Both the position numbers and the translations under genes were made by a program. Positions 1,931 through 54,110 of a stretch of DNA of 64,000 nt are shown here, one piece after another. The stretch is from NCBI GenBank assembly GCA_964016885.1, contig OZ024748.1:5766001-5830000 (forward strand), written 5' to 3'. Origin of the DNA: Eledone cirrhosa. Lineage: Eukaryota. The stretch's first letter is position 1, and the number at the start of each line of letters is the position of its first letter. Under the pieces are notes generated by a model, which saw nothing but the letters and a program-made list of their open reading frames with translations, was not told the origin of the DNA and ran no database searches.

Positions 1931-2098
1931 GATAGATAGATAAATATACACGGGTGTGTATGTTTGTGTATAGAAGATTATATTAATAAAAGGAATTCCA
2001 ACTTTGTCTGATTTACTCGTTTTATTTACAATCCTTTAAAATTTATAATGGTATTAGAATGAAATAGTATGGTAGAATATTAACGGTTAAGTGTTAAT

Positions 2099-2137
2099 TG
2101 AACAAGTACTTTCATGCTTTCGCAATCTTCAGGTTCA
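2099..2137 (-). ncRNA. Minimal hammerhead ribozyme (left arm)
   Basis: Minus strand TGAAC-CTGAAGA-T-TGC(GAAA)GCA-T-GAAA-GTAC-TT-GTTCA: stem I TGAAC/GTTCA, stem II with GNRA loop, palindromic AGTACT stem III. Confidence 0.75.
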
Positions 2138-2193
2138 TATTCAGTTGAAAATTGTCAGTTAAAAATTGCAAACTTGACTGTCACCACACAATA

Positions 2194-2232
2194 TGTACCT
2201 GAAGATTGCGAATGCAGGAAAGTACTTGTTCA
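2194..2232 (+). ncRNA. Minimal hammerhead ribozyme (right arm)
   Basis: TGTAC-CTGAAGA-TTGC(GAAT)GCAG-GAAA-GTAC-TT-GTTCA, one stem I mismatch. Confidence 0.7.
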
Positions 2233-3064
2233 ATTAACACTTAACATTTAATATTCTACCATAATATTTCATTATAATACCATTATAAATTTTAAAGGAT
2301 TGTAAATAAAACGAGTAAATCAGACAAAGTTGGAATTCCTTTTATTAATATATATATATATATATTCAATGGAGGGAAACTTTCCAGGTACAAAAACATG
2401 GCCATCAGTGACCGTTTTGGGCCTTAAAACAGCGACACACGCACACACACACTCACACATACACATGCACACACACAGACACACACACAAAAACACACAC
2501 ACACTTCATGGACCAGGCACCCCTACGTGCATAACTTTCATTTTCGTACCTACACACTCTGTGTTATGAAAATATTTATTTTGTGAAATTTTATATCTAA
2601 TATATACTATTTGATACTTTTTTAAAGTCGTAAATCACCGTAAAACTGTATATATATTTCACAATTATCTATTTGACGGTGTTATAAAGATCATTGAGAA
2701 CGTTTCACCCTGCTCGAATTAATAGTCAAATATTTTCAGATCAAAATATATTGCCTTAAAAATGGAGAATATCGGCTTTATATAAGTTTGTGAATTAGCA
2801 GATTCATACTGCATTAGAGTAAATGCTTTGAGGCATTTATTCCAGCTTACTCTATATTGAGTTCAATGTTGCCTTTTGTTGTTTCAGTATTTGCAACATT
2901 GGAAAGTTGAAATGTTTTTGAAACCAGCCTGCTTACCCGTGAATAAACTGGAGTTAAACAAAAACATTAGTAACACTCTCTATGATATGCTATTCTTAAT
3001 TAAATATATTCTTAATTATACAACAACGGCAAGAATCACTATACATTATATCGAAAAGGATTTC

Positions 3065-3202: not shown

Positions 3203-3829
3203 ATTATATCGAAAAGGCTTTCGATATTTTTCGAAAACGTAACATAAACATGAATCCCCAATTAAACTAGATTTTGTTGGGATTTGGGTTATATTTAACA
3301 CCGGGTCATTGATGTTCAACCCAGACACATGATCAAAGTGTTTCGCACCGTGTTAGCTCCGTCATATTCACAGCACATTAAGGACTAGAGTCACCAATAT
3401 CTGACCATCTAATTTTGTTGTTCTTTTTCACAAAGATTAAGGTATGATTTCAGAAAGATTTCGCTTGAATTTCTAATCAGGAAACCATTCTTCTGTTCTT
3501 CAACAAAAACTACATTCCAGCTTCTTTTATTTTGATATTATTTATCTGTTATTGTCCGTGTTTTTTTCTTTCTGTATTTATGTTTCAATTAATTTTCTTT
3601 TGGTGTTTTCTTGTTTATTATTTTGTGTTATTTTGTCTGTATATTACATTATTTCTCTATCTCTCTTTCTTCACCTCTCTCTATATTTTTTTCTATCCCA
3701 CTATATCCATTCATATTCTTCTTAGGTTTTGTGAAAAAAACAACAACGGCTTCAGTTGTTTCCACAATACATATATACATATATATATACATATTCATAT
3801 ACTTATATACATAGACACATGCATATGTA

Positions 3830-3871
<42 letters not shown>

Positions 3872-12876: not shown

Positions 12877-12949
12877 ACAAACACACTAACAAACATACAT
12901 GCACACACATATATATATGTATATATATATATACTGTGTATATATATAT

Positions 12950-13054
12950 AATATAATATCAAAAGATGGTTAAAAGAGTTCCAAGAATTTTATTATGCGC
13001 ATTTCAAAAACAAATATCATCATGAGATGATATCTGCGTTTTAATCAGATAAAA
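12950..13054 (-). mobile_element. Family D element, single arm, with HHR at 12988-13054 (core mutated to CTGATTA)
   Basis: Homologous to the 22349-22547 arms. TTTTAT-CTGATTA-AAAC-GCAGATATCATC(TCAT)GATGATATTTGT-TTTT-GAAA-TGCGCATA-ATAAAA. Confidence 0.75.
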
Positions 13055-13137
13055 CAGAGATACATGATATGAAGCTTAAAAAACACTTGTGAATAGTGAA
13101 GTTTTAAATCAACATATATATATATATATGTATATAC

Positions 13138-22018: not shown

Positions 22019-22218
22019 ATATAAAACATTGATTGCCCAACAAATTAACTATAGAGATATACAAGATACAGAAGCGAAAACCAACCAAACAGTGAGTGTG
22101 TTCTGTTATTATTTCTGCCAATATTACAACAAATGACCCTCCCAAGTATAACAATATATATACATATATATATATATATGAATGAATATATATATATACA
22201 TATATATATATGAATGAA

Positions 22219-22262
<44 letters not shown>

Positions 22263-22348
22263 GTAGGAGGTGAGTTTTATTGTAGTACAATAAAGCAATG
22301 CAGATATCGGATAAGAAGCACTCTACAGTTTGTGGGACTGGAGTATGC

Positions 22349-22539
22349 ATAATATAAGATCAAAAGATGGTTAAAGGAGTTCCATATATTTTATTATGCG
22401 CATTTCAAAAACAAACATCATCAAACAATAATATTTGTGTTTTTATCTGATGAAAACACAAATATTATTGTTTGATGATGTTTGTTTTTGAAATGCGCAT
22501 AATAAAATATATGGAACTCCTTTAACCATCTTTTGATCT

Positions 22540-22547
<8 letters not shown>
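22349..22547. mobile_element. ~200-bp near-perfect palindrome (family D) centred on an HHR core
   Basis: Arms are reverse complements except for one mismatch near the apex. Centre at 22448 lies inside CTGATGA. Right end runs into (TA)n. Confidence 0.85.
22441..22507 (+). ncRNA. Complete type I hammerhead ribozyme
   Basis: TTTTAT-CTGATGA-AAAC-ACAAATATTATT(GTTT)GATGATGTTTGT-TTTT-GAAA-TGCGCA-TA^ATAAAA: 6-bp stem I, long stem II, palindromic ATGCGCAT stem III, AUA cleavage triplet (cut predicted after 22501). Confidence 0.85.
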
Positions 22548-22610
<63 letters not shown>

Positions 22611-22871
22611 TTCATATATATATATATGTATATATATTGTTATATATATATGTGTGTGTGTGTGTGTGCGGACGTGTGGGTTTGTATAAATAAATAAATA
22701 CATGTTTTTTTTTTTATATAGTTAATGATGCGGATATGCTTCTGTCTGTATTTAAACGTGTGTATATTATGAGAACACATTGATGAGTATAAAGTTTACA
22801 CATGTGTACATCTGTTTATACTTCTGCTCAGCTTGAAATCCCCTTTCGACTCTTTTGTTATGTGTATTACA

Positions 22872-22921
22872 TCATATCTTATACAATACGATGTATATAC
22901 ATCGTATTGTATAAGATATGA
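22872..22921. repeat. Perfect 50-bp palindrome with no spacer
   Basis: TCATATCTTATACAATACGATGTAT|ATACATCGTATTGTATAAGATATGA. Confidence 0.9.
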
Positions 22922-23680: not shown

Positions 23681-23875
23681 ACAAAGGAATTGTGGTAAGC
23701 AACCAGATGGACCATAACGCACCAGAGTACTCAATATTTAGGGTAGTAGAGTGAGAAATAGGAAAAAGTAAGACCCCGACAGCAGAGCTCAAGCCGTTTC
23801 GACGGCTATTTCTATAGTCCAGAAATAGCCGTCGAAACGGCTTGAGCTCTGCCGTCGGGGTCTTACTTTTCCTAT
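23679..23875. mobile_element. Family C fold-back element in (TA)n
   Basis: Long arm plus a truncated inverted arm. Palindrome 23758-23875 with loop ATAGTCC at 23814-23820. (TA)n on both sides. Confidence 0.85.
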
Positions 23876-42918: not shown

Positions 42919-42994
<76 letters not shown>

Positions 42995-43185
42995 CGAACA
43001 CGTATGACCCCGACAGCAGAGCTCAAGCCGTTTTGACGGCTATTTCAGTCCAGAAATAGCCGTTGAAACGGCTTGAGCTCTGCCGTCGGGGTCATACTTG
43101 TTCCTATTACCCACTCTACCACTCTAAGTATTGAGTACTTTGGTGCGCTATGGTCCATCTCGTTCCTTACTACAATTCCTTCGTT
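42995..43185. mobile_element. Family C fold-back element, opposite orientation to 42610
   Basis: GACCCCGACAGCAGAGCTCAAGCCGTTTTGACGGCTATTTC(AGTCCA)GAAATAGCCGTTGAAACGGCTTGAGCTCTGCCGTCGGGGTC plus long arm. TA-flanked. Confidence 0.85.
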
Positions 43186-45584: not shown

Positions 45585-46103
45585 TCAGTCCGGGGCCTTG
45601 TAGTTATGCAATAGGTGTTTGGCGACGTGTGGACAACGTGTGAAAAATTCATTTCTCGTGTTTAGGCAATTACTATTTCGTAATCTCTTTAGAATGGTTA
45701 TTCGTTCGTCAATATATAAGCCACACGTCGGAGTTCCCCTTGCGTATGGCTTGGACTTAGTGATGGCTTTCCATTGAATGGAGTAGTCTATACTTGAGTC
45801 CTTGAGGGACCATACGTGGCTCGCGAGTTTCGTGGATGAACGTCTGTCCGCGTACCTGAAGGTAGACTGGTGGTTCAGGAAACGTTCCTTAAATCGGCCC
45901 TCCGGCATGCCCTCATAGGATTTGACCTCCTGTGGTTCGTTTGGTCGGTTGGAAGTGACCACAGCTTCATAAATTACAGCTGGTGTGTTGCATTGCTGTT
46001 GAAGGGGGAAAGCTTCGGGCTTACGGCAACAGCACCCTGGTGGGGTGTTGCTCCTAGGGCTGCTGGTGATGTGGGCCTTCATGTTCTTCGCGCAGGAGTA
46101 TCC
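45585..46103 (-). pseudogene. Penelope-like GIY-YIG endonuclease C-terminal fragment (no RT domain)
   Basis: GYSCAKNMKAHI..CCCRK..FPL..C..VIYEA.V..YEG..E..FKERF.NH.STF..TKLASHVW.LK..I.W..Y..C.L..E...I...LN.R.E....C.H..K. This motif order is typical of Naiad-clade PLE endonucleases. Several consensus Cys and YIG residues are substituted. Confidence 0.85.
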
Positions 46104-46457
46104 TATATATTTTATATATATTCTTCATTTTATTTCCCGTCATAATACATATATATATTTCGCTATCAGTCGCGTTGTTCATCAATACAACTGTATAACT
46201 GTAATCCATCTATCTATGTCTGCCTGTCTATCTATCTATCTATCTACCTATCTGTCTGACTCTCTGTCTATCTACCTATCTATCTATCGTAATATATGTC
46301 TGTCTGTCTGTCTATCTAACTATGTATAATCACCCAACTATCAAAATCCAATGAGCCAGCCAACTAATCACGCGAGAGTTAGTGAGCAGAACAAACAATC
46401 TAAAGAAAAAAAGTGAAAGGCAAATACAGAACGGGAAAGATAGAAGAGGAAGGCAGA

Positions 46458-52652: not shown

Positions 52653-53035
52653 AGGGTGGTGTATTGGCAGTATCGGTAGAGGGTTGCACGCTATGCTTTG
52701 AAGCATAGAGTAACGGCTTTTTATGGCCTCAGTTCAAATCCCGCCGAGGTTAACTTTGCTTTTAATCCCTATGGTGTCGATAAAATAAAGTACCAGTAAT
52801 GGCCTTGTGCCAAAAGTAGAAACAATTATTATCATCAATGGCGGTGGATTGGCACTATCGGTAGAGGGTCGGACGCTATGCTTTGTAGCATAGAGTTACG
52901 GCCCTCTACTGATAGTGCCAATCCACCGCCGGGGTTAACTTTGCTTTTCATCTTAATGGGATCGATAAAATAAAGCACCAGTAATGCACTGGGATAATTT
53001 CTGGCCTTGTGCCAAAAGTAGAAACAATTATTATT
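52653..53035 (+). mobile_element. Two tandem full-length SINE S1 copies (52653-52832 and 52840-53035)
   Basis: Head, core and tail in both. The second copy has its B-box replaced by an inverted copy of its own head. Confidence 0.9.
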
Positions 53036-53886: not shown

Positions 53887-53918
<32 letters not shown>

Positions 53919-53921
<3 letters not shown>

Positions 53922-54110
53922 GAACCAGTAAGACCCCGACAGCTGAGCTCAAGCCGTTTCGACGGCTAATTCTGGACCAGAATTAGCCGTCGAAACGGCT
54001 TGAGCTCAGCTGTCGGGGTCTTACTGGTTCCTATTACCCACTCTACTACCTCAAGTATTGAGTACTTTGGTGCGTTATGGTCCACCTGGTTCCTTACCAC
54101 ATTTCCTTCG

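What the first reader, a model, noticed from the sequence alone, without database searches (positions are those of the whole stretch)
22349..22547. 200-bp palindrome whose apex is the catalytic core of an intact hammerhead
The symmetry axis (22448) lies within CTGATGA. The + strand still holds a complete HHR because the end of the left arm (TTTTATC) doubles as stem I. The single arm mismatch (TTTATC vs TTCATC) sits at that point. This suggests fold-back or template switching at the ATC-T-GAT micro-hairpin during cDNA or second-strand synthesis (inference). Near-identical arms imply a recent event or gene conversion.
Basis: partly seen in the sequence, partly recalled or inferred. Interest (0 to 1): 0.75.

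Follow-up and report, generated by a model that had tools for sequence, protein, structure and literature searches.

The report
Head-to-head Penelope retroelement stub
The 200-base palindrome is real but ordinary: it is a short insertion of a very abundant Penelope-type jumping gene, likely made as two separate DNA copies of the element's RNA joined head to head, and its centre falls in the hammerhead ribozyme core only rarely among such insertions.

Summary
The palindrome is confirmed: 99-bp arms, centre T22448, one mismatch. It is part of a 286-bp insertion (22262-22547) of a Hydra-clade Penelope-like element (22,487 matches of a family 24-mer; ~800-aa RT/GIY-YIG-type ORF in long copies). 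The left arm runs on ~85 bp into the element's 'tail'; the right arm stops without it; both end in (TA)n. One tailed plus one tail-less arm is the rule (71 of 79 junctions), which simple fold-back cannot make. Likely two reverse-transcription events, one per end of the cut, joined by microhomology. The apex is not special to the ribozyme core: 30 junctions there, 1,879 at a site 69 nt upstream, 19 in a control interval. The 'doubling' TTTTAT is native stem I. The hammerhead is minimal, likely dimer-dependent, and would be buried in the hairpin. Inverted pLTRs, tails and junction palindromes are published; this scan found the same pattern on other DNA of this genome. Side lead: excess non-native G at the main apex suggests a capped RNA start. 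Raw-read support for this locus: inconclusive.

The parts
22262..22547 (.). Whole insertion: head-to-head, 5'-truncated copies of a Hydra-clade Penelope-like element, in a (TA)n tract
   Evidence: blastn to full element L053: 22259-22458 (-) = ref 372-572; 22441-22552 (+) = ref 374-487
22262..22348 (-). Element 'tail' (about 85-90 nt beyond the pLTR end), present on the left arm only
   Evidence: same end point in most tailed arms of the loci examined
22349..22443 (-). Left (tailed) arm within the palindrome; read on the - strand the core becomes CAGATAA, i.e. no hammerhead on that strand
22441..22547 (+). Right (tail-less) arm: pLTR fragment from native stem I to the pLTR end, followed by (TA)n
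22440..22458 (.). Junction at the element's native quasi-palindrome (T-run, ATC-T-GAT, A-run); 1-3 nt T/A microhomology, 5-T register
22441..22507 (+). Minimal type I hammerhead: stem I, CUGAUGA, 12-bp stem II, GAAA, palindromic stem III, AUA cleavage triplet
22219..22261 (.). Left (TA)n target tract
22548..22606 (.). Right (TA)n target tract
22607..22643 (.). About 40-bp inverted copy of left-flank host sequence 22148-22186 (TA count differs by 2)

Best explanation
This is a truncated insertion of an abundant Hydra-clade Penelope-like retroelement, likely built from two separate cDNAs that were primed at the two ends of a cut in a (TA)n tract and joined head to head by microhomology. Shown by sequence: element identity, (TA)n target, one tailed and one tail-less arm, junction on a native quasi-palindrome. 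Inferred steps: the element's endonuclease cuts both strands; each 3' end primes reverse transcription at one of two internal start sites of the RNA (pLTR end, about +170; tail end, +259); both cDNAs normally run to the RNA 5' end (+1, 69 nt upstream of the hammerhead core) and anneal through self-complementary ATAT ends; here both stopped or were trimmed about 65-70 nt early and annealed at the T-run/A-run flanking ATC-T-GAT. The hammerhead is a passenger of the pLTR and was copied uncleaved; at this locus it is predicted to be inactive, because any read-through RNA would fold into the 99-bp hairpin.
For: Family: 22,487 exact matches of a 24-mer. Long copies carry a 775-821-aa frame (L037, L053, L055) with RT motifs and Hydra hallmarks: RW, DKT, CxCX5C linker, CxxC and CxH around the EN E/N, no CCHH (against PMC8557442 passages). 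Anatomy: 71 of 79 unique head-to-head junctions are tailed + tail-less, 36 of 43 in the subset not picked by apex; ends fixed and in (TA)n. Non-nesting: in the window and L031, L034 the loop-bearing arm is the tail-less one; in 12 long tailed/tail-less insertions the tail-less arm reaches further 5' in 9, the tailed arm in 2, equal in 1 (read). Apex counts with like patterns: main site 1,879; core 30; upstream control 19; stem III/cleavage interval 123 with 14 background, wider gap. 31 of 54 arm 5' ends in short unselected insertions lie within 110-114 nt upstream of the anchor. In vitro precedent: a PLE protein cuts and extends both strands, starts RT at two internal sites that bound the tail, and does not need hammerhead cleavage (PMC11167929, parts 1-2 read). 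Folding: palindrome -144.0 kcal/mol free, -64.3 with the hammerhead enforced.
Against: No intermediate was observed; the two-cDNA model is read from end products. Arms are far more alike within than between insertions (35 of 74 identical over 84 nt vs 2.9% of 1,500 random pairs), which fits one source RNA but also fits copying of one arm from the other. 8 of 79 junctions do not follow the tailed/tail-less rule. The tail here (about 90 nt) is longer than the published 30-40 nt. Interval counts use exact flanks, miss diverged subfamilies and differ in width. Raw-read support for this locus was not obtained. Pfam gave no match for the ORF and no tree was built, so the clade call rests on motifs.
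Confidence: 0.75

Rival explanations
1. Snap-back: one cDNA ends inside the ATC-T-GAT hairpin, folds back and copies itself, giving the second arm; related to self-priming on an antisense template proposed for rotifer Penelope elements.
For: 25 of 30 junctions in this interval sit on the hairpin axis, in the three registers that pairing of its ends would give; arms share subfamily variants; self-priming was proposed from junction palindromes in PMC3846280 (passages).
Against: A self-copy cannot add the ~85-nt tail that the loop-bearing arm lacks in this locus. In 9 of 12 long insertions the tail-less arm reaches further 5' than the tailed arm while lacking its 3' tail. Many junctions have no loop symmetry or carry insertions. 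It survives only as a hybrid in which a hairpin is followed by a switch back to RNA.
Confidence: 0.15
2. The hammerhead itself sets the apex (cleavage or folding stops the RT at the core), or the arrangement is kept as a regulated ribozyme switch.
For: Junction counts are higher around stem III and the cleavage site (123, background 14) than in the control interval (19), and RT pausing in the structured region is plausible.
Against: The core interval holds 30 junctions against 1,879 at the upstream site. Of the first 50 loci listed about 15 centre on the stem III palindrome and about 10 lie near the cleavage site (counted by eye), so self-complementarity explains more than cleavage. The locus lacks the element's 5' start, and the hairpin buries the motif. 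No conservation of this locus was tested.
Confidence: 0.05
3. Library or assembly fold-back artefact.
For: No listed contig bridged this apex (table cut, 124 pieces not shown). About 40 bp of flank is also mirrored.
Against: A fold-back mirrors everything; here the tail is on one side only and both flanks go on into unrelated sequence. The same apex occurs at 6 exact loci with different flanks and subfamily letters. Raw reads of another sample show a head-to-head junction of this family (tail joined to the +1 start, 192 reads in X22, possibly one RAD stack).
Confidence: 0.03

Closest known systems
Hydra clade of C-terminal EN+ Penelope-like elements (Craig et al. 2021, PMC8557442; passages read)
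   Same: RW(K) and DKT motifs, CxCX5C linker, CxxC/CxH around EN, no CCHH, hammerhead in the pLTR, insertion into (TA)n, inverted 5'-truncated copy, tail at one end.
   Different: Tail about 90 nt rather than 30-40; the window holds only a non-coding stub; family copy number is very high.
Inverted pLTR structures with junction palindromes in Adineta vaga Penelope (Arkhipova et al. 2013, PMC3846280; passages read)
   Same: Head-to-head inverted pLTRs, optional tail on one of them, palindrome at the inverted junction.
   Different: That paper favours self-priming on an antisense template; the non-nested arms here favour two sense-templated cDNAs.
Poseidon of Anolis carolinensis in vitro (Frangieh et al. 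2024, PMC11167929; parts 1-2 of 4 read)
   Same: Two internal RT start sites bounding the tail, AT-rich target, both strands cut and extended, hammerhead cleavage not required.
   Different: Other clade; the parts read do not explain how the inverted junction is closed.
[quoted passage not shown]
   Same: Type I, long helix II, small palindromic helix III predicted to need a dimer; opposite-strand pairs 100-700 bp apart were already noted.
   Different: Here the two copies overlap at the core, so only one strand keeps the motif; helix II is 12 bp.
LINE-1 twin priming (named in review PMC4859970; passages read)
   Same: Two primed cDNAs joined at an inversion point with small indels.
   Different: In L1 the second primer starts upstream on the RNA and the pieces do not overlap (recalled); here both arms copy the same stretch, from two fixed sites about 90 nt apart.

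Membership tests
Penelope-like element (EN+) | Single ORF with RT and C-terminal GIY-YIG-type endonuclease in full copies of the family | tested here: met
   775-821-aa frames in L037, L053, L055; motifs in alignment A1. Pfam scan gave no family; 25 homologues, no informative name.
Penelope-like element (EN+) | pLTRs in partial tandem flanking the ORF | tested here: met
   L053 and L055: pLTR-tail-ORF-pLTR
Penelope-like element (EN+) | Inverted 5'-truncated copy with tail at one end only | tested here: met
   71 of 79 junctions, window included
Penelope-like element (EN+) | RT phylogeny places it among PLEs | not tested
   no reference PLE set was on hand; no tree built
Hydra clade | RWK-like and DKT motifs; CxCX5C linker; CxxC and CxH; no CCHH | tested here: met
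   RRLRWT (RWK in most homologues), HSDKTNN, CNCRIKNKC, CNLC, ICLH; definition
Hydra clade | Insertion into (TA)n | tested here: met
   flanks of 71 insertions, nearly all TA repeats
Type I hammerhead ribozyme | Core CUGANGA, GAAA and NUH in register with helices I-III | tested here: met
   helix II pairs kept in 96-100% of 121 distinct copies, changes almost all one-sided (G-U), copies preselected for the core
Type I hammerhead ribozyme | Stable monomer helix III / active fold is the preferred fold | tested here: not met
   2-bp monomer helix III; enforced fold -4.0 vs free -9.9 kcal/mol; 8-bp dimer helix -10.5; buried in the palindrome by about 80 kcal/mol
Type I hammerhead ribozyme | Match to an Rfam hammerhead model | tested here: not met
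Type I hammerhead ribozyme | Self-cleavage | not testable with these tools
   needs an assay
Non-LTR retrozyme | Tandem head-to-tail units each with a hammerhead | tested here: not met
   single head-to-head stub; linked to an ORF-bearing element; definition from bioRxiv 10.64898/2026.07.22.740005, part 1
MITE / DNA transposon | Symmetric terminal inverted repeats with fixed internal spacer and target-site duplication | tested here: not met
   ends asymmetric, apex variable from 73 nt to 5 kb between anchors; direct flank repeats in 2 of 71

The most novel reading that the evidence does not exclude
The thousands of palindromes of this family are a genomic record of the unsolved closing step of Penelope retrotransposition: a dimeric enzyme copies capped, uncleaved sense RNA from two fixed internal sites onto both ends of a double-strand cut, runs off at the cap (non-native G before the +1 base: 2,329 matches vs 659 for A), and joins the two cDNA ends by self-complementary microhomology. 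This would explain tail, inverted pLTR and junction palindrome at once and argue against the antisense self-priming model.
Probability: 0.55. Interest if true: 0.55.

Novelty: new member of a known kind. Interest (0 to 1): 0.27.

Why it matters
The locus itself matters little: it is one rare junction class (30 found) among thousands of head-to-head Penelope stubs. The family as a whole matters more: how Penelope-like elements form inverted pLTRs and one-sided tails is stated as open in PMC8557442 and PMC3846280, and the counts here (mixed tailed/tail-less arms, non-nested arms, a sharp 5' stop with extra G) give direct predictions for the existing in vitro system. It also shows that such palindromes in animal assemblies should not be read as fold-back artefacts, MITEs or miRNA hairpins.

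Tried and rejected
Rfam scans: no hammerhead model matched; the miRNA hits at 22387-22509 are below gathering score and reflect the hairpin. DNA search of the own genome with the right arm returned nothing because common words are skipped; patterns were used instead. Pfam and PDB searches with the ORF gave nothing useful. No RNA holder listed. Locus-level read support: contigs of X1-X4 laid on 22405-22491 showed no listed piece bridging the apex, output cut, X4 laid nothing: inconclusive; RAD reads sample other loci. Private-variant test for gene conversion: the variant is a subfamily trait. Inverted flank duplication as a family signature: only 3 of 71 (window, L105, L128) vs 1 of 300 control pairs, so not general. 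Cleavage-site apex as main class: rejected (vs 45). Cap signature is only partly clean: 18 of 30 sampled G cases can be explained by the partner arm's own sequence, 12 cannot; for A 21 and 9; two pairs of G rows are the two arms of one junction; T was not counted. Literature: searches (listings) showed no paper stating a two-cDNA, cap run-off model for PLE inverted junctions; the library lacks most subscription papers, and I did not open supplements (PMC8557442 file S1/S2 may list this family). A repeat-annotation paper on an octopus (PMC13282606, passages) did not discuss palindromes; the host of this window was not determined.

Full report
Observation. The palindrome is as described: 99-bp arms around T22448 with a single mismatch, T22444/G22452. 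The + strand carries a type I hammerhead layout from 22441 to 22507. Rfam does not recognise it. The window is AT-rich animal-type DNA full of microsatellites and holds several other long inverted repeats (8 found).

What it belongs to. A 24-mer from the right arm has 22,487 exact matches in the own genome, control 0; many listed matches come as a minus copy followed by a plus copy 100-5,000 bp on. Long copies contain a 775-821-aa frame (L037, L053, L055) between two repeats in partial tandem. Aligned to homologues it shows RT motifs and a C-terminal endonuclease with the features that PMC8557442 gives for the Hydra clade: RW(K), DKT, CxCX5C, CxxC, CxH, no CCHH, (TA)n targets (passages). Pfam gave no match and no tree was built. 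Against the full element, the window holds two head-to-head fragments: 22262-22443 on the minus strand, which includes the about 90-nt tail that follows the 5' pLTR, and 22441-22547 on the plus strand, which stops at the pLTR end.

The anatomy is a rule. Of 79 unique head-to-head junctions in 153 loci fetched at that point, 71 pair a tailed with a tail-less arm; 4 tailed/short, 2 tailed/tailed, 1 tail-less pair, 1 tail-less/short; in the 43 not chosen by apex, 36 (L049 counts twice). Ends are fixed and nearly always in TA repeats (71 insertions). This is the published PLE signature: inverted 5'-truncated copy and a tail at one end (PMC8557442; PMC3846280); opposite-strand hammerhead pairs were noted in PMC4209133.

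Is the apex tied to the catalytic core? Genome-wide counts with 12-nt flanks and a 0-11 gap: core interval 30 loci, upstream control 19, site 69 nt upstream of the core 1,879 (747 as the perfect form). A wider pattern over stem III and the cleavage site gave 123 with 14 background; by eye about 15 of the first 50 listed centre on the stem III palindrome and about 10 lie near the cleavage site. In short insertions not chosen by apex, 31 of 54 arm 5' ends fall in a 5-nt span at the upstream site. So the core apex is rare. The native element reads G-T-run-ATC-T-GAT-G-A-run there, so the 'mismatch' is where native stem I of the right copy meets the antisense left copy. Junctions follow short self-complementary sequence, not catalysis.

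Mechanism. A cDNA that folds back can only give an arm nested in itself. In the window the arm that owns the loop is the tail-less one, yet the other arm has 85 extra bases of tail. Both orientations occur among core junctions. Among 12 long tailed/tail-less insertions the tail-less arm reaches further 5' in 9, the tailed arm in 2, and 1 is about equal (read). Each arm therefore holds sequence the other lacks, which points to two RNA-templated events. PMC11167929 (parts 1-2) shows in vitro that a PLE protein cuts and extends both strands, starts at two internal sites that bound the tail, and uses uncleaved RNA. The inferred path: cut in (TA)n, one cDNA from the pLTR end and one from the tail end, both running towards the RNA 5' end, joined by microhomology; here both ended 65-70 nt short. 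This is inference from end products; a hybrid with hairpin and switch back to RNA is not excluded.

Arm identity. Over 84 nt, arms are identical in 35 of 74 insertions (5 of 79 dropped because an arm did not cover the stretch), mean 1.8 differences, against 6.2 and 2.9% identical for random pairs; 11 of 13 insertions with arms 1-5 kb apart differ at 0-2 places. The window's distinctive letters are a subfamily trait (1,823 matches). One source RNA and modest age explain the identity; conversion is not needed, though not excluded.

The ribozyme. Helix II is kept across 121 distinct copies (96-100% paired, nearly all one-sided changes; copies were preselected for the core). Helix III is a palindromic octamer with 2 bp as monomer and 8 bp as dimer, the design that PMC4209133 found inactive as monomer and weak as dimer. 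With the left arm present the hairpin (-144.0 kcal/mol) beats the hammerhead fold (-64.3), and neither arm includes the element's 5' start. 'Intact' is true of letters, probably not of function.

Artefact? Reads could not settle this locus (no listed bridging piece, output cut). Indirect evidence is against artefact: one-sided tail, unrelated distal flanks, the same apex at 6 loci with different flanks, and a family head-to-head junction in raw reads of another sample. About 40 bp of left flank is repeated inverted on the right, seen in 3 of 71 insertions, likely a templated repair patch in the self-complementary TA tract.

Side lead. At the main apex the native base before the start is C. A non-native G precedes it 2,329 times and A 659 times; none of 30 sampled of each had native upstream sequence; 12 of 30 G and 9 of 30 A were not explained by the partner arm. 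Untemplated G at full-length 5' ends is taken as a sign of copying the cap in LINE-1 and SVA (PMC4859970, passages). This suggests a capped transcript start and a sense template; an enzyme preference for adding C is an alternative. A word search of this scan's notes found no such finding, and my paper searches did not show this model, within the library's limits.

Verdict. This scan has reported the same insertion pattern on other DNA of this genome. Interest 0.27; the family-level mechanism is the part worth following.

Noticed in passing
window 12939-13117 (-): Solo tail-less copy of the same family, from the main 5' stop site to the pLTR end, TA on both sides; core changed to CTGATTA.
   Followed up: partly
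window 23764-23870, 42991-43108, 53918-54034: Three palindromes of a second family with the same anatomy: one arm runs on about 85 nt into a tail, both ends in (TA)n.
   Followed up: partly
window 1979-2352: 169-bp arms with a 36-nt asymmetric centre; hammerhead-like CTGAAGA...GAAA motif near the centre; likely a third family.
   Followed up: no
window 10043 (-): Another type I hammerhead-like motif with a palindrome-like stem III.
   Followed up: no
window 45585-46124 (-): 179-aa frame that aligns to the endonuclease end of the same clade of elements.
   Followed up: partly
window 22100-22156: Left flank is the TA-adjacent end of another repeat also seen beside L085, L105, L110, L138; these elements pile up in the same TA tracts.
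   Followed up: no
window 22148-22186 and 22607-22643: About 40 bp of host flank is duplicated in inverted orientation across the insertion; similar in L128.
   Followed up: partly
window 22872-22921 and 52840-52930: Shorter inverted repeats (25-bp perfect; 29-bp arms with 33-nt loop, the latter in a different common repeat).
   Followed up: no
L035, L036, L080, L083, L186, L187, L214: Junctions with short reiterated copies of the cDNA end, suggesting repeated slip-and-reprime before joining.
   Followed up: no
L053 (element 3' UTR, ref 3295-3854): Tandem 111-bp repeats in the 3' UTR whose copy number varies between element copies.
   Followed up: no
main apex, e.g. L154-L198: Excess non-native G before the common 5' stop site, possible cap signature.
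   Followed up: partly
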